DNA from: Callorhinchus milii
Lineage: Eukaryota
DNA length: 64,000 nucleotides
Direction: 5' to 3'
NCBI RefSeq assembly: GCF_018977255.1
Contig: NW_024704742.1
Coordinates: 91,700,001 to 91,764,000, forward strand
The translations under genes and the position numbers were made by a program. Below are positions 1,673-55,594 of this stretch, piece after piece (the stretch's first letter is position 1; each line of letters starts with the position of its first letter). Below the pieces are notes generated by a model, which did not search any database, had not been told where the DNA came from, and worked only from the letters and a program-made list of their open reading frames with translations.

Positions 1673-2039
1673 GGAGTCCTGTAGCATAGTGGTTAGAGCA
1701 CTTGCCTCACAATCGAGAGACCTGGGTTTGATTCGCAGCAGGGTGAAACCTAGGGCAAGTTTCCTTCCTCTACACACCTGATAATAATCCCTCAAGAAAA
1801 AAACAATAATAATTTGATCACTCAATCCACGACTGTTTGTGGGACACTGCTGTGCGCAATTGGCTGCCGCGTGGGACGTCCTCCTGACGTGAAAGGCGCT
1901 TTATAAATGGAATCTTGTTGTTGTTGTTGTTTCACCCATAAAATAAACAGTCAATTCACTTTACAGTATATTCTGTGAAACGCTTTGAGACATCTAGAAG
2001 ACGTGAAAAGTGCTATATCAAATTCAAGGATTATTATTA
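1673..2039 (+). mobile_element. tRNA-Ala SINE, short form, nested in an older minus-strand SINE and interrupted by an L2 tail
   Basis: Same head, body and tail; TSD TTATCAT at 1665-1671 and 2040-2046. Confidence 0.9.
1873..1930 (+). mobile_element. 58 bp tail-only insertion of the young L2
   Basis: GGGACGTCCTCCTGACGTGAAAGGCGCTTTATAAATGGAATC(TTG)n matches the 3' end of the L2 at 5763-6819. Confidence 0.85.
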
Positions 2040-5685: not shown

Positions 5686-5762
5686 TGTGGACAGAAATAG
5701 ATTTGGGGCTTAATTGTCAGATTGCTTCTGCTCCTTTCCCCACCCCAAATCATTTGAATAAC

Positions 5763-6819
5763 AACAACAACAACAAGATTCCATTTATAGAGCGCCTTTC
5801 ACGTCGGGAGGACGTCCCAAGGCGCTATACAGTTGGGTCAGGACCCGAGCAAGGGGGAAATGGTCAGGGTGAGGAGAGGGAAGGGAGGGAGCGAGGAGGG
5901 GGTAGAGAGTCGAGAGGGGAGCTGAAGGCACGGTCAAAGAGAAAGGTCTTGAGACCGGCCTTGAAGGAGGAAAGGGAGGAGGCGGCGAAGGCACTGGGGG
6001 ATAGAGTTCCAGAGCCTAGGGGCTGAGAGGCTGAAGGCCCGGCCACCGATGGTAGGGCGGTTGGGGCGGGGGATGTGGAGCAGACCGGAGCCAGAGGAAC
6101 GGAGGGTACGGGCAGGTAGGTAGGGGGATAGTAGGTCGGAGAGGTAGGAGGGAGCAAGGCCGTGAATGGCCTTGTAGGTGAGGGTGAGGATCTTGAATTC
6201 GATCCTCTGGGGGATGGGGAGCCAGTGGAGGCGAGCGAGGGTGGGAGTGATGTGGTCCCGAAGCCTGGTGCGGGACAGTACACGAGCTGCAGAGTTCTGA
6301 ATGACCTGCAGCTTGTGGAGGGAGGTGGCGGGAAGGCCGGCGAGGAGAGAGTTCCCATAGTCCAGCCTTGAGGTGATAAAGGCGTGGACCAGGGTTTCAG
6401 CAGCGTGAGGGGTGAGGTAGTGCCGTAGTCTGGCGACATTCCGGAGGTGATGGAAGGCGGTGCCAGTTGTGGCGCGGATATGAGGGAGAAAGGACAGCTC
6501 AGGGTCGAACAGAACCCCGAGGTTCCTGACCGGCTTTGAGAGGTGGAGAGTGCAGCCTTGGATGCTGATGTTGTCAGCGCCTGAGGTGCGGAGGCGCTGA
6601 CGTGAACCAATCAGGAGGGCCTCAGTTTTGCGCACGTTGACCTCAGAAAGTTGTCTCTCGGCCAGGACTCGATGTCGGACAGGCAGCTGTCAGGACATCG
6701 GTGGTCGTGGAGTTGAGGGTAGAGGAGGAAAGGTAGAGTTGGGTGTCATCCGCATACATGTGGAAGTTAACCCCATGTCTGCAGATGATGTCACCAAGGG
6801 GGAGCATATAGAGGGTGAA
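5763..6819 (-). mobile_element. Young 5'-truncated L2-clade LINE (RT C-terminal part + 3' UTR)
   Basis: [36 protein letters not shown] motifs with frameshifts; stem-loop and (TTG)n tail; TSD GAATAAC at 5756-5762 and 6820-6826. Confidence 0.95.
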
Positions 6820-9258: not shown

Positions 9259-9519
9259 CACATATTAATCATCCCCAAAATACAGTTCAGGGCCTTCTTT
9301 CTTACTCTTGTGATATAGCATCTGAGGTTCTACATCTGAGAATTTTCTTCTCCACCACCTGACAATGGTAGCAGGTAACTACCATTGTCAGGGGCAGAAA
9401 CAACCAATGCCAAAACTGTATTCGTCAAATATGAAGTGGGATAGAAACAGGAGGCTTAGGTCAATTTGGATTTCAATGACTTAAGAGAATCATCACAAAA
9501 GAGTTTTGGAAAACAGAAG

Positions 9520-11668: not shown

Positions 11669-11719
11669 ATGTCCTCCCGACGTGAAAGGCGCTATACAAA
11701 TGTAATCTTGCTGTTGTTG
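11669..11719 (+). mobile_element. L2 tail-only insertion within an older SINE tail
   Basis: GTCCTCCCGACGTGAAAGGCGCTATACAAATGTAATCTTGCTGTTGTTG flanked by TATA. Confidence 0.7.
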
Positions 11720-12361
11720 TATATCAAATGCAAGGATTGTTTCATCTATGTATCTCAGTTCTGACTTCTGTGAAGTTGGATTGAATCTAACGGAGGTTCT
11801 TGAGGGTTGCATTTCTGATCAGCATCCGTATAGAGACTTCGGCTGCATTGGATTATAATGGGGAAATCCCATCAGAGGCCAACATTGTCACTGCCGTAGC
11901 ATGGAATGCTGGCTGGAATTTTAGCCCTCTGAAACCCGTCTGGAGATCAACAACACCACTGGACTGGAAATGTCAGGCTGGACTCATCAGAGTATATGCA
12001 GCATTCATAAGATACAAACCTTTGTGTCAATCTCACAAATTAGATCCTTTTTGTTGAAATGGGGCACAGTGTTCTCCGAAACATTAGGGGATAAGGGGTG
12101 GTGGAAGCTGAGGCTCACTACAGATTGGGAACAGGAATCTTACTTTCAACACTGTGGGTGGTGTGTGTTTATGTCAGAAATCACCCACCAAACCAGTTGC
12201 AAGATTTGGTGGAAAGCATTTTTACAAGATTTTGCTGTATTTTCTGGCCTGCATTTATGTTTACTCAGCAAACAGACTGTTATTACTGTGTGTCTGAACT
12301 AGCAATTCTAAAATAAAGTCACTGAGTTCTTAAATGGGTAAAATCTTTGTCAAATGAAAAT

Positions 12362-22039: not shown

Positions 22040-22714
22040 CTTCAGTCAATAAATTTACCTTTTTAGTGTGAAATCGACAACAATTTTGCACTATTCAATC
22101 CCTAATTTACCTAGAGCTGGTTAAACCAACAAGTCTTATTTCACTTAGCACTTTCACCCAACAGAGGATGTGAATTTCATTCTATCAGCTTGGCCTCGAT
22201 TTGAACACATTGGTCAATGTACATTTGCCTACCACTTAGTTCCTGCAAACCAAGCTTCTTTTGTTTCTGTTATACATTTCCTTGTCCACAAACTACAGCC
22301 AACCAAATATGTATAAGGCTATTGGCTGTTTGTGGGGCATTGCTCTGTGTATAGTTAGTGGTTGTTGCGTTCGCCCTCAAAATACTTAATCACTACATTT
22401 TACAATACATCTTATGAATTGCTTTGAGGCAGCCTTCTGATCTAAAAAGCACTATAGCAAATGCAAGAAATTATTATTTATTATTTTTATATTATTCAGT
22501 AATGATCAAATTCATCTTTTCCTTCTGCAAAAGATGAGAAGTTTAGCAGAAGGAAAAGATGTACAGAGCTTTCCCATTTTTATTCATCTGTAACTTCATC
22601 TCATTGACAGTAATAATAATTCTTGCATTTGATGTAGCGCCTTTCATGTTGGGAGAGCATTTCAAAGTCTTCACAGGGTATACTATAAAGTGTACCATAT
22701 ATACTGTATATTAT

Positions 22715-25682: not shown

Positions 25683-25824
25683 CTGCAAATTAGGTATTCA
25701 ATTGGGTCTCTTTTTGTTAACTGGAAGTGCTTCATGCTTCATTCATCACATGCTATCACACAAGCTGCTCTTTATTCTTAACACGCTTCAAAAATGCATG
25801 GACCAAAAGGGCACAGGCAAATGT
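25683..25824. repeat. Left arm (source) of a 142 bp inverted duplication
   Basis: Reverse complement of 26353-26495 with about 5 differences. Confidence 0.93.
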
Positions 25825-26352
25825 GATGATTAAATACAATTGTTGACCAAAAGCTAAATTTACTAAATCTGTTTATTTCATAGTCTATTTACATTGTCTC
25901 ATTCCGTGTTCATGAACTCTGGAGTTCACCGTCTGTGCTAACATTGTAGTAGCAATAATAATAATAATAATCCTCGCATTTGGTATAGCACCATTCATTG
26001 TCAGGAGAATGCCCCAAAGTGCTTCGCAGGATATACTGTAAAGAGTTGTCACTGTGTATTTTGTAGGCGAACACAACATCTATTTGGCCACAACAATGTC
26101 CTACAAGCCATGAAGTGAATGATCAATTTTATTTTATTTGGCCAGCAGACCAGGAGAAACTTCCTTCTCTTTTCTAATAGTACCATGGGATCTTTTACAT
26201 CCACTGAACAAGCAGACAGGATCTCAGTTAAACATCCCATCCTTAAGATGGCATCACCGAGAATGCGGCACATCCCCACTGGAACGTCAGCTTAGATTAC
26301 CAAGTCCCAAAATGGAGCTTGAACCCACAACCTTCTTACTCAAAGGTGAGAG

Positions 26353-26495
26353 ACATTTGCCTGTGCCCCGTTTGGTCCATGCATTTTTGAAACATGTTAA
26401 GAATAAAGAGCAGCTTGTGTGATAGCATGTGATGAATGAAGCATGAAGCACTTCCAGTTAACAAAAAGAGACCCAATTGCATACCTAATTTGCAG
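26353..26495. repeat. Right arm: inverted templated copy at the 5' junction of an L2
   Basis: Abuts the L2 through CAG microhomology and lies inside the TGAGAG TSD. Confidence 0.92.
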
Positions 26496-26760
26496 CCCCT
26501 GGGCTCTGGAACTCTATCCCCCAGTGCCCTCGCCTTGCTTCCTCCCTTTCCTCCTTCAAGGCCTGTCTCAAGACCTTTCTCTTTGATCGTGCCTTCAGCT
26601 CCCCTCTCGACTCTCTACCCCCTCCTCGCTCCCTCCCTTCCCTTCCCTCACCCTGACCATTTCCCCCTGCTCGGGTTCTAACCCAACTGTCAAGCGCCTT
26701 GGGACATCCTCCCAACGTGAAAGGCGCTCTATAAATGGAATCTTGTTGTTGTTGTTGTTG
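26493..26760 (+). mobile_element. Young 5'-truncated L2 (same family as 5763-6819)
   Basis: Near-identical to the reverse complement of 5763-6026; (TTG)n tail. Confidence 0.95.
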
Positions 26761-29700
26761 AGAGTACTATCACCTGAGCCAGGCTGACATACAGACTGAG
26801 CCAGCAGTACCAATAGTGCAAGGTGGTTCATTCAACGGCAGACTTTTACTTCAGAGAGTGGTGGAAGGATCAGCAGCACTATCTGAGGGTGGTGTATGAA
26901 ACTTCAGAGTGCCTTGATCGGAGTGGCATTAAATGGGGGCATTTGACGTTATTATCAAATGCTATTATTATTATTTGGCCAAGATTCTGCTTTATCAGGG
27001 ATAGGCTGTTGACCTGAGTTCCAATTTCTTGCCTCTTTTATTTGTTGGGGTCAGATGGATGTCTGGAATACTACAACAACAACAACAAAAACAACAACTT
27101 GCTTTTAAAGCTTCCCAGAGCACTTTAACACAAACCCATCACCATACTTAAAAGTATCCAAAGCAGACTTAGAGCTCCACTTACATATGATGCCGACACA
27201 AGGAAATTTCTCTGTGTCTGGAATAGAATGTGCACTCTCTCCCACTGAAGGAATGCTCCTGCTTAGCTATTTCTGAAGAGTATTTAGCGCAGACTGCTGA
27301 AGGTCAAGGATTGGCAAACCCAGAGTGTGCTTAGCCAGTTTGCCGTTGAGTCGTCCTCTAGAATTCCCTATTTACGCCACTTGCAAGACTGCATCCGCTA
27401 ATGGTTGTCGGTGACCGTTTTGAGGACAAGCAGCCGGAAAGTCAGAGGATCATTCCTTCATTAAATGTAACCACTTGGCAAGACTGTCTAAACTTGACTA
27501 CAAGTCTCCTTTCATTCACAATCAAAGGGTTTAGATGTCATCCTCCGAGATGCTATGCTGCCGGGTCAATGAGATTTCCTCTGGAACACCACATTGGTAA
27601 CATTCCAGTTCTGGTGATCTGTAGTGCACACATTCATGGTACATTACTTAATGTGTCACTGAGCTGGATCTACTTCTTAGGCATCAAAGACTACAAATGA
27701 GTATTCTTTGGTACTCCAACATTCTCGCTGTCTCATCAATGGCTGTCAAACTCTCTATTTTTGATGATGTTTAAAATACCTCCTCGGTCATTAAAATCAT
27801 CACTTCACATCAGTAAACAGCACTGCGGATTGTTCTGAAGCACTATTTATAGTTGAGAATTTGCTTATGTTAAGATGTTGTCATACCATACAAAAATAGT
27901 AAAATTAGCAAATTTGCAAGTGCAGTTTATAGAAATTCTAATTTCATCAAAATCCTGATTCAAGAGTAATATTTTCTGGCAAGTTAATTATGTGTTGTCG
28001 GATTTTGCTTGGGTTTGTGTTGCGTTTGAGGTATGAGGGGAAGAGGAGGGGTAGGAGGGCAGCAGCCTTTAATAAAGTCTAAGCTAGAGATTCAATTAAC
28101 CTAAATATTATTCCATCCATTAAGTAACAGGAGAACAGATTAGGTACACAGCAAAACATATATTAAATCAACTAAAACTATACAGAGGCAAAGAGCCTCA
28201 GTGTCCACTTGTATCTGCAATTCACAATGCTGCAATGATTTTAATACAAAATTATCGCCCCTATGTCTTATTCAACAACATTTACCAAACTCTCCTCAGA
28301 TTATAAAACTATATTCATACCAATACAAGTGATTCTCTCACATCCAAATAATATTGGAAATTCACTCGATAGCTGACCATGGGATATTACTATGTGCAAA
28401 TTGGCTACCGCATTCGCCCAAAAAACATAGTCACTACAATTCACAGTATATCCTGTGAAGTGCTTTGAGACATCTCAACAATGTGATAAGGCATTATATT
28501 GCAAACTAAAATTATAATTATTATTGTACCCCGAACCTTGTCTGATCCCTATGGTCGAGAATCATGATAAAATGGAAGAATTGGTTTGAAGAAGGAAGAG
28601 GTGATAACTTTGTCACCATACGTCCATGAACACCCTCTGTTCAAAGGGTGAGCAAGCAGATGACAATGAAAAAAGTCTGGGAAATTACTTCACTATCTCA
28701 AGATCCTCAGTGGAGATGCTCCAAAGTAACTGGTTCTACTTTGTTGCATTTGGAATTTGGTTCCCCAACCATCAGCAAATCAACCCCAAGACCCTTTTGT
28801 TGACCTTCAAGTAACCCTACCTCTGTCATCTCTTTCTGTCAACTACTTCTGTCAGCTTCATTTTCTTGCCCACTGCCTGCACTCAACAAACCAGGGCCTG
28901 CTAAATGTTTTCCCTCAATCCATAGCCAGTGGCTGAGCTTTCAGCAATGTACCCCAATCTCTAGTACTCACTTCAAAAATGTATAATCTCTCTTTCACTA
29001 ACATCAGATCAAAGCCTATCTCTTTGATTATACATTCAGTCATCCTCCCCTATTCCCTTGTCTATGTAAAATGCTTTATGATAGTCTCCCCATAAGGCAT
29101 TATCTGAGTTCAAGTTGTTGTGATTGTTGAAAGAAGATAGCAGGCAAAAGGGCCAAGAGCTTTCTCCTTTTCTCCCTCCACCATCTCTTTCTGATCACAA
29201 GATAGGAAGCTGTTGAGAACCATTTCCCCAGGACATCTCCAGGAGTGGAACGTTATGATACTCATCGGAACTCACTGCATTCTTCACCCCCGATAGGTGG
29301 GTCTGAGCTACAAGTAGATTGTAGGTAGCTCTTGGAATGGGCGGTCCCTTTAACGGTACTATGAAGTACAAATTTTAATATGTTACTTACATAGTAATGT
29401 TCAGAATCAAAGCGGGAGGGGGAGAAGGAAAGCATTAATTCCATATGTTTTGAAGCGCAATGAATACATTACAATGAATACATTACATGTTTTTTTTTAG
29501 ATGTTCATTTGCTGCAGTTGTTTCTAATTTAGTACGGCATCAAATCATAAAGTGAAATGGAGTCAGCACTGGCCTAAATTCATCAAGTCTAGAACTAGAG
29601 TAAAAGTGGTATAAATTTCAACAGAAATCACAGCGAGGCAAAGTGGAGTCGATAAAATCCATCTGCCTCCTTTCTAGTGGATAAGATTTTTACTAATAAA

Positions 29701-31376: not shown

Positions 31377-32161
31377 TTATACCTGAATTATTGCATAGTT
31401 TTTTTNGTTTAAAGAGAAAATCTGTTCCAATCATTCGGCTGGACGTGTTCCACAGGCATTTTTGAATTCTTTGCAGATGGAACATTTCTTTGCTAGTACA
31501 AAGGATAGAACACATCAATGCAGATGAAATCAGGAAGCATTTTGCTGGAACCAAACCATAGCCTTGGTACAGGAAAGGATTAAAAGGCAAAGGGAAGAAT
31601 GCATTAAAAGCGTTTTGAAACAACTAAAAAACACATCTCCATTTCTTCGCCTCTATCTTCTTGCACATCTGACAACAATGGGTAAAAAGATGGCGTTATT
31701 AACCAAAACTAGTGCAGTGGGGATACTCGACAAATGGAGACAGAACAAATTCTCCCAACAGTTGATGACGAGAAACAAGCCTGTTCTTTATAAAAACGTG
31801 GTATTTCTTTTCAAATTTTTAAATCACTTTTTGATGAAAAACAGATTATGTCCTGTCTGTTTCCCACTTCAATGCATTTTTTTCAAGACTCCTGTTCTCT
31901 GCGCAAAAAATATAAGAGAGACTGGGCGATGACTGCTTTCCTACAAGATCTTCCCAGATGCACAATGAACTCTGAATGCTTATAATAATTTAGCAAGTGA
32001 TTGCATGCAATGCTTGAAATCACACCACAACTGCCTGCAAGCCAAAACAGAGTTCTGTACACTGACAGGCAAGTGCTCGTGGAAGCTCAGTTGTTATTAC
32101 ATCATCGATGAAAAGTAAAGTCAACAACAACTAAAAAAACTATGCAATAATTCAGGTATAA
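31377..32161. mobile_element. Putative non-autonomous DNA transposon with 33 bp terminal inverted repeats
   Basis: TTATACCTGAATTATTGCATAGTTTTTTTNGTT (31377-31409) versus its reverse complement at 32129-32161; TA/TATA at both ends. Confidence 0.72.
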
Positions 32162-36449: not shown

Positions 36450-36738
36450 CAGCCGTGAAGTAAATGACCAATTTTTTGTTTGGGGAATTGTTGGTCAGGA
36501 CACTGGAAGAAACTCCTTTCTCCTTTGATGGGAACTTTGGCATCCACCTGAACAGACAGACAGAACCTTAGTTGAATGTCTCACCCAAAGGACAGCACCT
36601 CAGACAATGCAATGCTCCTCCAGCACCACACTGAAGTTTCAGCTTAGAGAAATATGAGCTCAAAATCTCGATATAGAGCTTGAACCCTCAACCTTCTGAC
36701 TCATAGGCGAGAGTGTCTCAACTCAGCCAGGCTGACAC
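36450..36738 (-). mobile_element. Deu-type SINE 5' part with intact head
   Basis: GTGTCAGCCTGGCTGAGTTGAGACACTCTCGCCTATGAGTCAGAAGGTTGAGGGTTCAAGC on the minus strand. Confidence 0.8.
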
Positions 36739-45418: not shown

Positions 45419-48180
45419 GGAATCATAGAATTCTAGAATTATACAGCACAGATGGAGGCCATTCGGCCCATCGTGTCTGTGCCGGCTCTTTAAAAAGAGC
45501 TATACAAATCAATCCCGCTCCCCGTGCTCTCCCCATAGCCCTATAAACTTGTCCTCTTCAAATAATTATCTATTTCTCTCTTAAAAGCTGTTATCAAATT
45601 GGCTTCCACCACCCTTTCAGGCAATGCATTCCAGATCCAAACAACTTGCTGTGTAAAAAATTTCTCCACACCTCCCCTCTGTTTCTTTTAACAACTATTT
45701 TAAATTGGTGTCCTTGGTTTACCAAAGCACCCACCAGTGGAAATATTTTCTTCTTGTTCACGCTATTGAATCCCCTCATAATTTTGAAAACTTCTATTAA
45801 GTTTCCTCGTAACCTTCTTTGCTCCAAGGAGAATAATCCTAGCTTCTGTAGCCTCTCCTGATAACTGAAGTCCCTCAATCCTGGTAAATCTCCTTTGCAC
45901 CTTCTCCAATGCCTTGACATCCTTCCTAAAGTGTGGGGCACAGAACTGAACACAGTCTCTAGCTGAGGCCTAAGCAGTGTTTTATAAAGGTTCATCATAA
46001 CTTCCTGACTTTTGTATTCTACGCCCCTATTTATAAAGCCTAGTATCCCGTATGCTTTTTTAACAGCTTTATCTCCCTGTCCTGCCACCTTCAAAGATTT
46101 ACTTATATGAATCCTCAGGTTTTTCTGTTCCTTCACCCCTTTAAGATTCTACCATCGGCTTATATTGCCTCTCCTCATTCTTCCTCCCGAAATGCATCAC
46201 TTCGCGTCAGTCCATTTTACCAGTCTGTCTATGTCTGTTTGCAGTCTGCTACTATCCTCCTCACTGTTTACTATTTTTCCTAGCTTAGTATCATCTGCCA
46301 ACTTGGAAATTGTACTCCTGATACCCAAGTCCAGGTCATTTATATAGATCAAGAACAGCAGTGGTCCCAATACTGATACTTGGAGGACACCACTGCACAC
46401 TTCCTTCCAGTCAGAAAAACAACTGTTCACCACTACTCTCCGCTTTCTGTCTCCCAGCCAGTTCTGTATCCAGGCTGCCACTATCTCTTTAATACCGTGG
46501 GCTTCTATTTCGCTTTACCAGTCTCTCATGTGGCACTTTATCAAATGCCTTTTGAAAATCCATATAAACTACATCAATAGCACTACCTGCATCCACCCTT
46601 TCAATTACTTCATCAAAAACTCTATCAGGTTTGTTGGATATGATTTGCCTTTAACAAATCCGTGTTGGCTGTTCTTTATTAACCCAAATTTTTCTAAGTG
46701 AAAATTTATTTTGTCCCAGATTATAGTCTCTAGACGTTTCCCCACTCCTGACGTTAGGCTGACTGGCCTGTAGTTCCCAAGTTTATCCTTCTGTCCCTTT
46801 TTGCACAAGGGAGTAACATTTGCAACCCTCCAGTCCTCTGGCATCACCCCAGTGTCCAAGGAGGATTAAAAGATTGTGGCCAGAGCTTCCATTATTTTCA
46901 CCCTTACTTCCCTCAGTAACCTAGGACCTATCTTGTCCGGAGCGGGTGACTTACCTACCTTGAGAACTGACAACAGTTTTAGTACCTCCTCTCAGTTTAT
47001 TCTTATCTTATCCAATTTCTCTACCCTCTCCTCTAATACTGTGGCATTGGCTGCATCCTCTTCTTTTGTGAAGACAGATGCAAAGTACTCATTCAGTACG
47101 TCAGCCATGCCCTCTGCCTCCACAAGAAGATTTCCTCTTTGGTTCTGATTAGACCCACCCTGCCTTTGACTAACCTTTTATTTTTTATATGCTTATAAAA
47201 TACCTTTTATGTTACCCACTAATCTTTTCTTATGCAATCTCTTTGCCCCTTTTATTTCCTTTTTCAATTCTCCTCTGTACTTTTTATATTCTATTTGATT
47301 ATCTTCTGTATTCTGGACTAGACATTTATCATAAGCCTCCTTTTTCTGCTCCTTATTCATTCAGGGAGGTTTGGGTGCCCTATGTTTCCCCTTTGTGGGA
47401 ATGTATTTGTTCTGTCCCTGAACTATCTCCTCCTTGAAGGCTTCCCACTGTTTGTTAGCTGTTTACCTGCCAATCTGTCTTTCCAGTCCACCTTGGCTAG
47501 GTCCCTTTTTAACTCACTGAAATTAGCCCTCTTCACCTTTGATTGCTCCTTGTCCCTTTCCATAAGTATTCTAAACCTAATGATGTTGTGATCACTGTTG
47601 TTCAGATGCTCTCCTACTGAAACCTGCTCTATTTGCCCCACTTCATTCCCCAGAACTAGATCCAGCACTGCTTCCTTCCTCTTTGGGCTGGAAACATACT
47701 GATCCAGAAAGTTATCCTGCACACATTTCAGGAATCCTTCCCCCTCCTTGACCTTTAGACTGTTATTTGTTAGGATGCTAGTCTATGTTAGGATAATTGA
47801 AGTCCCCCATTATCATTACTCTATTGGTTTTGCATCTTTCTGAAATCTGCTTGTAGATTTGCTCGTCTATCTCCTTCCCATTATTTGGTCGTCTATAGTA
47901 TACACCAAACAAAGTAACAGCTTCCTTTGTGCTCCTTAACTCTAACCATGTAGAATCTGTTTTTGGTCCCTCTAGCACATCGTTCCTTTCCAGGGCCATA
48001 ACCGTGTTTTTAATTAATATTGCCACTCCCCCCATCTCCTTTTTTTCCTTCCCTATCTCTCCTGAATACCAGGAATATTTAGCTCTCATTCCCGTCCTTG
48101 TTTGAGCCGGGTCTCCGTTCTTGCCGCTACATCATAACTCCATGTGGCAAATTGAGCCTGCAGCTCACCAATCTTATTTG
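45419..48180 (-). mobile_element. CR1-clade LINE, 5'-truncated, decayed ORF2 (APE endonuclease + RT)
   Basis: GGVAILIK, MGDFNYPNID, LDLVLGNE..SDHN (EN); NYRPVSLTS, QHGFVKGKS, VLGPLLFLIYINDL, ADDTKL (RT); frameshifts and stops; TSD TTTCAT at 45413-45418 and 48181-48186. Confidence 0.95.
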
Positions 48181-52260: not shown

Positions 52261-52440
52261 CCTGGCTTGAATCTGTGAGATCCTCACCATTCTCCATCTC
52301 CTCTCCTCTCTCAGAGCAGCTTTCAGGAACTCAGCACTAATACTGTCTGCACCAGCTAACTTGCCATTACGAAGACTCACTCGCATATTTGCATACACCT
52401 TGCAGGACTTCCATGTGGAGCCATAAAGTTCATTTTAATA

Positions 52441-52668
52441 CCTTACAACAATGAAAAAGGAATGCTTTGATAAGGCCTGAGCAAGCATGTCAGAACAGAA
52501 CGGCATTTCATCAGCCACTAACTGCAACCACCCATAAACACAGGAACTGAGAATCTGTGCACTTCTGGTGCTCTTGGGAGGCTGGAGTTAGAAGTTGATG
52601 AAATGCCGCTCTGCTTGAACATGCCTGCTCAGGCCCCTGGCAAAGTGTTCCTTTCTCTTTGTTTAAAG
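52441..52668. repeat. About 225 bp imperfect hairpin element
   Basis: GGCCTGAGCAAGCATGT/ACATGCCTGCTCAGGCC and CGGCATTTCATCA/TGATGAAATGCCG; loop about 10 nt. Confidence 0.8.
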
Positions 52669-52725
52669 AGCTATCAAAATAAACTTGATGGCTCTACATA
52701 GAAGTACTGCAAGGTGTATGCAAAT

Positions 52726-53051
52726 ATAATAATAATAATAATAATCCTTGCATTTGATATAGCGCTTTTCACGTCGGGAGGACGTCCCAAAGCGCTTCAC
52801 AGAGTACACTGTAAAGTGAATTGACTGTATATTTGTGGGCAAACGCGGCAGCCAATTTCGCACAGCAATGTCCCACAAACAGTCGTAGATTGAAAATGAC
52901 CAATTTATTATTGTTTTGGGTTTTGGAGGGATTATTATTAGGCTCTGTGTGGAGTAAGGAAACTTGCCCAAGGTTTCGCCCTCTGCCTGGAATTGAACTC
53001 AGGTCTCTCACTTGCAAAGCGAGTGCTCTAACCACTGAGCCACAGGACTCC
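52726..53051 (-). mobile_element. tRNA-Ala SINE, CTCCC-loop subfamily
   Basis: Full length; very similar to 54272-54592. Confidence 0.93.
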
Positions 53052-53569
53052 ATATGCGAGTGAAGCAGTTACCATTTGTTTGTTAGCTCTCACAGTCCAG
53101 TTTTAGCATTATATAAATATTTCTTCACATTTATTCTGCTTACTCAAACAGTATTGAATGTTTTCCAGGTGCTGTACTGTGTATGATTTAAAATGTAGTT
53201 TTGGAATAAAGGAACACTTCACCAGTTGTTGGAAGTTGTTTTACCTGAAATACAGCTGAGTGAGTGGAGGAATTAAAGGTTGAAGGTTTGCACGTAAATA
53301 TTTTATAGGGATTTATGCAATATTCATGGTGTCCAATTTGTAGTATTTCTCAATAGGACTCGTTGACAAGCAACCTGGGTTCCGCAAATAGGATCTCTTA
53401 CCGGTAACGGGAAGTATGTCCTGAGAACTCATGGGAACTTTGCTCCAAAACAATCTACTTCTAGAGCAGAGATCCTGCAGGTAGATGGAAATTTTAACGG
53501 GTTATTACAAAATGTCACAAATTAGATGCCAGTACAAAAAGAGAAATGCCAGAGGACTCCAATTGTTTA

Positions 53570-54140: not shown

Positions 54141-54171
54141 TGTATAGGAAGTAGTAAGGAGTGGGTATAGA
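54141..54171. repeat. 31 bp perfect inverted copy of 54745-54775, fused to a SINE tail
   Basis: TGTATAGGAAGTAGTAAGGAGTGGGTATAGA versus TCTATACCCACTCCTTACTACTTCCTATACA. Confidence 0.9.
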
Positions 54172-54271
54172 AGGATTATAATTATTATTATTATTATGTA
54201 ACATGATAGAGCCTTTCTAGGTAATGATTTGGTTTGAGAGAATGAATTATGAAAAACTCTTTCCGCTAGTT

Positions 54272-54592: not shown

Positions 54593-55594
54593 ACTAGTTG
54601 GGATTTGCATAGACTTATATAAGACTATACAAGACGGAGATAAGGCCATGCCTGTGTTTATAACAACTTACTTTTATATAGTACTCTTCACACAGGTTGC
54701 CAATTGGAGTGCTTAATCTGAGTGCTTGTTTATCACCACTTGAGTCTATACCCACTCCTTACTACTTCCTATACACGCCTATGCTATTCTCCCTCATATA
54801 TACATCCAGCTTTCTCTTAAATAGATCTAAACTATTTGCTTCAAACATCACTTTGGGCAGCAAGCTCCACATTCACATTACCTACTACATGAAGAAGTTT
54901 CTCCTAATAGAAGGTATGAAGCTTGTGACAAGGGGAATAAAAGGAGAGATTTGAAAAAACTTAATGGGAATGGAATGATTTCCCAGGAGTGGTGTTGGAG
55001 CAGAGTTGGTTGGAACATTTAAAAAAGAATTGGACAAAAACATGCAGATTAAGGATGTTAGAGGATTATGGAAAAAGAGCAGGGAATTGGGATTAGGGTG
55101 GATAGTTTCTTGAAGGAGCAAACAACGACATGAAAAAATAGGCCAACTGGCCTCCTACTGTGTTGTCCATTTCCAGGATCAGTTCTAAGTATCATGGCAT
55201 ATTATCAGCTGGGTGTCTGATACAAAATGATACAGATCACCGTATCCAAACCAAACTATTAGGAGTTCCTTATATACATGGAACTCCATTTGTCTGGTAT
55301 GCAATGCAAACTCTCTCCCTGAAATGACACACCCCTGCTCACTTAACGCTGGGAAAAATTAAGTGAAGATTGGCAACAATCAAGACTTGGAGGTCCCAGA
55401 GTGTGCATCATTTTTTTCATGAAATAAACGTTTAGGGGGAATATCTCAAGGAAAACATCTTACAAGAACATTGTCTTACAAGAGTTTGGAGAGCCAGGAT
55501 CCTTTTTTATGTCACAAAACTGACAGTGGCTTCAACTCAGTTGCTGATGCAATTTGACATAAGAAATGATGTCTGCATTTGATGCAGTGTATTA

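What the first reader, a model, noticed from the sequence alone, without database searches (positions are those of the whole stretch)
25683..26790. L2 insertion carrying a 143 bp inverted copy of nearby DNA at its 5' end
Seen: the insert at 26353-26758 lies between TGAGAG direct repeats (26347-26352, 26759-26764) and splits a Deu-SINE head. It consists of a reverse-complement copy of unique DNA from about 530 bp upstream (25683-25824, about 5 differences), joined by 3 nt CAG microhomology to a 5'-truncated young L2 with a (TTG)n tail. Known: L2 inserts by target-primed reverse transcription, and 5' junctions often show microhomology or extra nucleotides. Inference: the RT or a repair polymerase (theta-like) switched template to neighbouring DNA during integration, creating a long local inverted repeat. 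This differs from L1 twin priming, where the inverted part is element sequence.
Basis: partly seen in the sequence, partly recalled or inferred. Interest (0 to 1): 0.72.

Follow-up and report, generated by a model that had tools for sequence, protein, structure and literature searches.

The report
LINE insertion carrying backwards flank copy
A cut-short LINE jumping gene sits beside a backwards 143-base copy of DNA from about 530 bases upstream, likely copied while the element was being sealed into the chromosome; this is a rare but already described insertion scar with no sign of a function.

Summary
26353-26495 is a 96.5% inverted copy of single-copy DNA at 25683-25824. It is joined through a shared CAG to a 268-nt 5'-truncated young LINE, and both sit inside one 4-6 nt target-site duplication between the A and B boxes of an old tRNA-type SINE. 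Arm divergence (1.7% per lineage) matches the LINE copy's age (2.0%), which fits one event. Contigs from two other samples each carry one arm junction, just under the tool's 31-letter bridging rule. Microhomology lies at the LINE join (3 nt) and is absent at the TSD join, which slightly favours a cDNA-end template switch (0.5) over fold-back of the opposite end (0.27). The class is known: flank-templated 5' extra nucleotides of zebrafish L2 elements, and fold-back or templated insertions at about 0.3-0.6% of human L1 insertions. Only the 528-nt distance is unusual. This scan noted the same layout before, in this genome and in others (unchecked notes). A second, weaker case lies at 54141-54201. 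No host gene or function was found, and no empty allele was seen.

The parts
25683..25824 (+). Template (left arm): single-copy host DNA
25947..26352 (-). 3' part of the old host SINE (B box near 26320-26330, central body, (ATT)n tail); 66-81% identical to paralogues
   Evidence: 'Deu' label recalled, not tested
26347..26352 (+). Left copy of the target-site duplication (4-6 nt)
26353..26495 (-). Inverted copy of 25683-25824 (right arm, 5' extra nucleotides), 96.5% identical; no microhomology at the TSD join
   Evidence: contigs in X5 and X7
26493..26495 (+). CAG microhomology shared by arm and LINE
26493..26758 (+). 5'-truncated young LINE (end of ORF2, 3' UTR, (TTG)n tail); 5 private differences from the family majority
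26759..26764 (+). Right copy of the target-site duplication
26765..26790 (-). 5' end of the host SINE head with A-box-like motif

Best explanation
A 268-nt truncated LINE and a 143-nt inverted copy of DNA from 528 bp upstream lie inside one short target-site duplication, and they likely went in as a single retrotransposition event in which the unfinished cDNA end likely paired by 3 nt with the nearby flank and was extended along it before being joined to the other cut end. Shown: the anatomy, the TSD, the CAG overlap, the lack of overlap at the TSD join, and similar ages. Inferred steps: (1) the LINE endonuclease nicked the bottom strand in the SINE head, and reverse transcription started at the (TTG)n tail; (2) it stopped after about 265 nt; (3) the cDNA 3' end paired with the bottom strand at 25683-25685 in a locally opened duplex or the sister chromatid, and a polymerase (host or LINE RT, not determinable here) copied about 140 nt towards the break; (4) the extended end was released and joined without homology to the 4-6 nt overhang, and fill-in made the TSD. 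The product is inert: a dead LINE fragment and a spaced inverted repeat in an already decayed SINE.
For: One TSD encloses arm plus LINE, and its size fits the roughly 5-bp TSD of L2-clade ZfL2-1 (PMC4245944). There is 3-nt microhomology at the LINE join (chance of 3 or more is about 0.05) and 0 of 10 matching positions at the TSD join; microhomology usually marks the primed end (established knowledge). Ages agree: 5 of 248 private LINE differences against 5 of 286 per-lineage arm differences, Fisher p = 1.0. An X5 contig at 26324-26424 carries flank plus right-arm alleles, and an X7 contig at 26450-26521 carries arm plus LINE. The candidate at 54141-54201 would copy a strand that resection does not expose, so such invasion seems possible here (one case). 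An SDSA-like cDNA switch is the model cited for 22 L1 templated insertions (bioRxiv 2024.08.27.596794).
Against: The template must be the bottom strand upstream, which is the strand that 5' resection removes, and 3 nt is very little for invading a duplex. The CAG overlap is equally expected of the final join in the fold-back model. The age test is weak (95% intervals 0.6-4.7%). The junction contigs have 29 and 26 letters on their short side, under the tool's 31-letter rule, and X6 and X8 list no right-arm contig. L1 templates usually lie within 15 bp of the site, not 528. No empty allele or orthologue was seen.
Confidence: 0.5

Rival explanations
1. Same single event, opposite primer: after resection of at least 670 nt, the top-strand 3' overhang (the TSD) folded back on itself at 25824, was extended 143 nt, unwound, and annealed to the cDNA by CAG (microhomology end joining).
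For: It uses the strand that resection exposes. The geometry is that of L1 insertions with inverted duplication of the reciprocal end and a retained TSD (bioRxiv 2024.12.14.628481 section 9) and of the 52-220 bp fold-backs upstream of L1 targets (PMC10191854). 3 nt is in the 2-6 bp MMEJ range (PMC4760211). Yeast fold-backs reach about 150 bp (PMC11724301).
Against: No primer-template complementarity at the fold-back point (0 of 10); the DNA fold of the flank pairs the end only locally. Published L1 cases have 2-bp microhomology and small hairpins, and the yeast case a 41-nt loop, against 528 nt here. Priming through one or two untemplated bases would be invisible, so the model is not excluded.
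Confidence: 0.27
2. The LINE RT jumped from LINE RNA to a nascent host transcript crossing 25683-25824 (minus-strand RNA if the cDNA was the primer; plus-strand RNA if the second nick primed, as in twin priming).
For: RNA supplies a single-stranded template with no resection or invasion. One L1 case with nearby pre-mRNA co-inserted is reported (PMC10191854 section 11).
Against: No host exon was found: 296 of 347 unique stop-free stretches of 45 aa or more were scanned against Pfam, and only LINE domains plus one sub-threshold Ferlin_C hit came up. No RNA run is on record as holding the stretch. A long intron cannot be excluded.
Confidence: 0.12
3. Two events: an ordinary LINE insertion, then (or before it) an independent repair-templated inverted insertion at its 5' junction.
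For: Small local inverted copies unrelated to LINE ends occur in this window (22513-22561, 9358-9392). X6 and X8 show LINE-tail letters at the 3' junction but list no arm contig. A joint 26345 to 26502 that skips the arm appears in X6, X7 and X8.
Against: The arm starts at the exact base after an intact TSD and ends at the LINE truncation point, and the ages agree. The skipping joint has only 24 letters on its short side, and X6 and X8 each list a contig with a diverged SINE loose end at 26322, exactly 24 letters before 26345. It is therefore probably a paralogous SINE-LINE locus (inference; the tool does not link the two rows). Contigs drop branches, so absence proves nothing.
Confidence: 0.09
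4. Assembly artefact (chimeric fold-back read or misjoin).
For: Inverted duplicates are a known long-read artefact (own knowledge); no listed contig spans the whole insert.
Against: The arms differ at 5 places; right-arm alleles and both junctions occur in contigs of other samples; the TSD is clean.
Confidence: 0.02

Closest known systems
5' extra nucleotides of zebrafish L2-clade LINEs ZfL2-1 and ZfL2-2, 'annealing' 5' joining (PMC4245944, passages; PMC4760211, parts 1-2 of 4; the primary paper, Kajikawa 2012 Gene, was not held)
   Same: LINE of the same kind, 5' truncation, roughly 5-bp TSD, extra sequence copied from the flank; about half of native ZfL2-2 copies carry extra nucleotides
   Different: The passages speak of 'several' extra nucleotides. 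Here 143 nt come from 528 nt away, inverted. Their length and orientation data were not seen.
Human L1 with fold-back inversion / inverted duplication of the reciprocal end (PMC10191854 section 11; bioRxiv 2024.12.14.628481 section 9)
   Same: Inverted copy of upstream flank at the 5' junction, TSD kept, 52-220 bp of extra synthesis; 4 cases in the Nature data (0.3% plus 0.1%)
   Different: Somatic L1 there; heritable LINE in a cartilaginous fish here. There, small hairpins with 2-bp microhomology at the fold-back point; here, a 528-nt spacer with none.
L1 'templated insertions' (bioRxiv 2024.08.27.596794, passages)
   Same: Non-LINE genomic template under 250 bp incorporated during integration; cDNA-switch model; 22 cases among 3,598 insertions
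   Different: Templates typically lie within 15 bp of the site. Their supplementary figure with distances and orientation was not seen.
L1 twin priming (PMC12016303, passages)
   Same: Inverted 5' segment inside one TSD
   Different: The inverted part is element RNA there and host flank here, so this is not a member.

Membership tests
TPRT insertion of a non-LTR retrotransposon | 3' tail, 5' truncation and short TSD | tested here: met
   (TTG)n tail, truncation at 26493 against the sibling copy, 4-6 nt TSD checked against a SINE paralogue
TPRT insertion of a non-LTR retrotransposon | Family encodes endonuclease plus reverse transcriptase | tested here: met
   The sibling's 251-aa frame hits 637 proteins; all but one of the 120 listed carry RVT_1, many also Exo_endo_phos
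L2 clade | RT phylogeny places it in L2 rather than CR1 or Rex/Babar | not tested
   Label recalled from C-terminal motifs and the 3' tail shared with the window's SINEs; no tree was built
LINE insertion with flank-templated 5' extra nucleotides | Extra sequence lies between the 5' TSD and the element and matches nearby flank | tested here: met
LINE insertion with flank-templated 5' extra nucleotides | Extra sequence is not part of the element family or a dispersed repeat | tested here: met
   Single hit in the window; arm depth 7-20, and LINE contigs continue with LINE sequence
LINE insertion with flank-templated 5' extra nucleotides | The pre-insertion allele lacks both element and extra sequence | tested here: inconclusive
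   No locus-specific empty allele among the listed rows for 4 runs (joint table cut, 358 rows hidden); no other species holds the stretch
Fold-back inverted duplication at the reciprocal end (L1, yeast) | Microhomology at the fold-back point | tested here: not met
   0 of 10 positions
Fold-back inverted duplication at the reciprocal end (L1, yeast) | Template on the upstream side, inverted, TSD kept | tested here: met
Twin-priming 5' inversion | Inverted part derives from element RNA | tested here: not met
   The arm has no match to the LINE sibling or other repeats
Polymerase theta-mediated end joining | Genetic dependence on polymerase theta | not testable with these tools
   needs mutants
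DeuSINE (host element) | Deu central domain | not testable with these tools
   No SINE library; label recalled. PMC4824008 (passages) lists a shark DeuSINE.
tRNA-derived SINE (host element) | A-box and B-box-like head | tested here: met
   Read by eye on the minus strand, split by the insert, aligned with paralogue 36713

The most novel reading that the evidence does not exclude
In this cartilaginous-fish genome the L2 machinery routinely seals 5' ends by copying inverted flank from several hundred bases away on either side of the cut, at a rate well above the 0.3-0.6% seen for human L1. That would be a long-range templated joining route and a genome-wide source of spaced inverted repeats, and the thousands of young copies would make the open question of LINE 5' joining testable by counting.
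Probability: 0.2. Interest if true: 0.45.

Novelty: new member of a known kind. Interest (0 to 1): 0.18.

Why it matters
The single locus matters little: it is a dead insertion in a dead SINE with no gene found nearby. Its use is as a clean natural record of how LINE 5' ends are joined, a step the literature calls unresolved (PMC4760211). The side that carries microhomology and the flank that is copied separate cDNA-primed switching from fold-back, and a genome with this many young copies could supply the numbers.

Tried and rejected
No whole genome is held, so no genome-wide scan of LINE 5' junctions was possible. No orthologous empty site: the 14 listed runs all carry one species label, 4 hold most of the stretch, and they come from one study. 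Host gene search: 296 of 347 stretches scanned, nothing but LINE domains. In-window control: none of 16 other young SINE or LINE hits has a unique inverted flank copy at its 5' end; four matches of 12-15 nt are explained by neighbouring repeats. The 54141 case was found by a different route. Even 1 unselected case in about 17 is compatible with a rate near 0.5%, so no rate is claimed. Read-through RNA of the host SINE as template was rejected: T4 runs on the minus strand lie between the SINE and the arm (read), and the SINE is old. A 5-nt match between the template and sequence 7 nt right of the cut would allow fold-back only with a later 7-nt deletion; I set it aside as probable chance (not computed). 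Joints across the insert with 19-25 nt sides were taken as SINE paralogues. The missing right-arm contigs in X6 and X8 were not read as absence. Six paper searches listed no report of this in a cartilaginous fish; the library lacks most subscription journals. PMC13343379 (passages) did not settle the clade.

Full report
Observation. The insert at 26353-26758 (406 bp) begins with a reverse-complement copy of 25683-25824. The arms align over 143 columns with 4 substitutions and 1 indel (96.5%) and lie 528 nt apart. The arm has no other match in the window, and 20 shuffles gave no inverted exact match of 16 nt or more within 3 kb. The rest, from 26493, is the 3' end of a young LINE, 94% identical to a sibling at 5760-6025, ending in (TTG)n. 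The sibling's reading frame matches 637 proteins, nearly all of the 120 listed being reverse-transcriptase proteins at about 50-59% identity. One hit, at 97% over 48% of the query, is a Callorhinchus milii gene model, so the genome is probably elephant shark. 'L2' is a recalled label; no tree was built.

Target site. TGAGAG flanks the insert on both sides. A paralogous SINE head at 36713 has GAGAG once and runs on into the sequence right of the insert, so the duplication was made by the insertion. It is 4-6 nt, the first letters being shared with the tail. The host is an old minus-strand SINE (66-81% to paralogues), cut between its A-box-like and B-box-like motifs. 'Deu' is recalled and was not tested.

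Junctions. CAG at 26493-26495 is both the end of the arm and the start of the LINE piece; three or more shared letters have a chance of about 0.05. At the TSD join there is no overlap: 0 of the last 10 flank letters match the template.

Other individuals. Four runs of one study hold 75-78% of the stretch's words. In all 4, a contig runs from the LINE tail into the right flank, with 10-27 letters on the LINE side. X5 has a contig at 26324-26424 with flank plus right-arm alleles; X7 has one at 26450-26521 with arm plus LINE. Their short sides are 29 and 26 letters, so none meets the tool's 31-letter bridging rule. X6 and X8 list only the left-arm contig. A joint 26345 to 26502 in X6, X7 and X8 skips the arm. 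It has a 24-letter side, and X6 and X8 list a diverged SINE loose end at 26322, so I read it as a paralogous locus; an arm-less allele is not strictly excluded. Arm depth is 7-20 against about 3e5 in the LINE, and LINE contigs continue 5' with LINE sequence. At 90% likeness, two bins at the left arm's edge show some extra depth (up to 34), far below repeat levels.

Age. At 5 of 248 non-tail positions, 93% or more of the laid family depth has another letter, or 2.0%. The arms differ by 1.7% per lineage; Fisher p = 1.0, with intervals of about 0.6-4.7%. This fits one event but is a weak test.

Mechanism. A single event gets about 0.89 in total. Within it, either the cDNA end primed on the flank (0.5), the opposite end folded back (0.27), or a nearby RNA was the template (0.12). 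Microhomology usually marks the primed end, and it lies at the LINE join, which favours the first. Strand availability favours the second, since resection exposes the top strand. A second candidate bears on this. 54141-54171 is a perfect 31-nt inverted copy of 54745-54775, 573 nt downstream, followed directly by a bare SINE-type tail; TGTA serves as both possible TSD and microhomology. It would copy a strand that resection does not expose. It is short and was not checked in reads. No host exon was found in 296 of 347 stretches scanned, so the RNA route has no positive support. All mechanistic steps are inferred; the polymerase cannot be named.

Comparison. About half of native zebrafish ZfL2-2 copies have 5' extra nucleotides, a large fraction of those made in cell culture came from the flank, and ZfL2-1 makes 5-bp TSDs (PMC4245944, passages; PMC4760211, parts 1-2 of 4). 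The primary 2012 paper was not held. Human L1 shows fold-back inversions of upstream flank, 52-220 bp, in 4 cases (PMC10191854 section 11). It also shows inverted duplications of the reciprocal end with TSD kept (bioRxiv 2024.12.14.628481, passages and section 9), and 22 templated insertions among 3,598, typically under 250 bp and within 15 bp (bioRxiv 2024.08.27.596794, passages; its supplementary figure was not seen and may hold distant cases). Yeast breaks give fold-back copies of 2 to about 150 bp (PMC11724301, passages). The locus is a member of the first class by every feature I could test. It differs in the distance to the template and in lacking microhomology at the fold-back point.

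Earlier scan notes, unchecked, describe the same layout elsewhere in this genome (159 nt from 616 nt away; two 65-69 nt copies from about 1 kb away) and in another genome. I saw them after the literature above; they are leads for the rate question, not support. In this window 0 of 16 other young SINE or LINE hits carries such an arm.

Verdict. Real, probably one insertion event, a new member of a known kind, no sign of function. Interest 0.18.

Noticed in passing
window 54141-54201, with 54745-54775: Perfect 31-nt inverted copy of DNA 573 nt downstream (a young 324-nt SINE lies between), followed directly by a bare SINE-type (ATT)n tail; TGTA is both a possible TSD and microhomology. Probably a second event of the same kind.
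   Followed up: partly
window 31377-31409 and 32129-32161: Inverted pair, 29 nt exact up to the window's single N and about 33 nt in all, 727 nt apart, next to a short (CAA)n run; no TSD seen. Templated copy or old transposon ends.
   Followed up: partly
window 52385-52727 and 53053-53065: Old 340-nt palindromic MITE-like element (76% self-complementary) with a young SINE inserted in its right end.
   Followed up: partly
window 22513-22561 and 9358-9392: Small perfect hairpins in unique DNA (16-nt arms with a 17-nt loop; 14-nt arms with a 7-nt loop); possible fold-back repair scars.
   Followed up: no
window 1872-1931: 60-nt LINE tail piece nested inside an older SINE.
   Followed up: no
window 46200-48131, minus strand: Decayed long LINE with RT and endonuclease Pfam hits.
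   Followed up: no
P0037: A Callorhinchus milii TTC39B gene model contains a piece 97% identical to this LINE family's ORF2; probably a gene-prediction artefact.
   Followed up: no
window 11671-11741: Short LINE tail joined head-to-tail to a SINE-type tail fragment.
   Followed up: no
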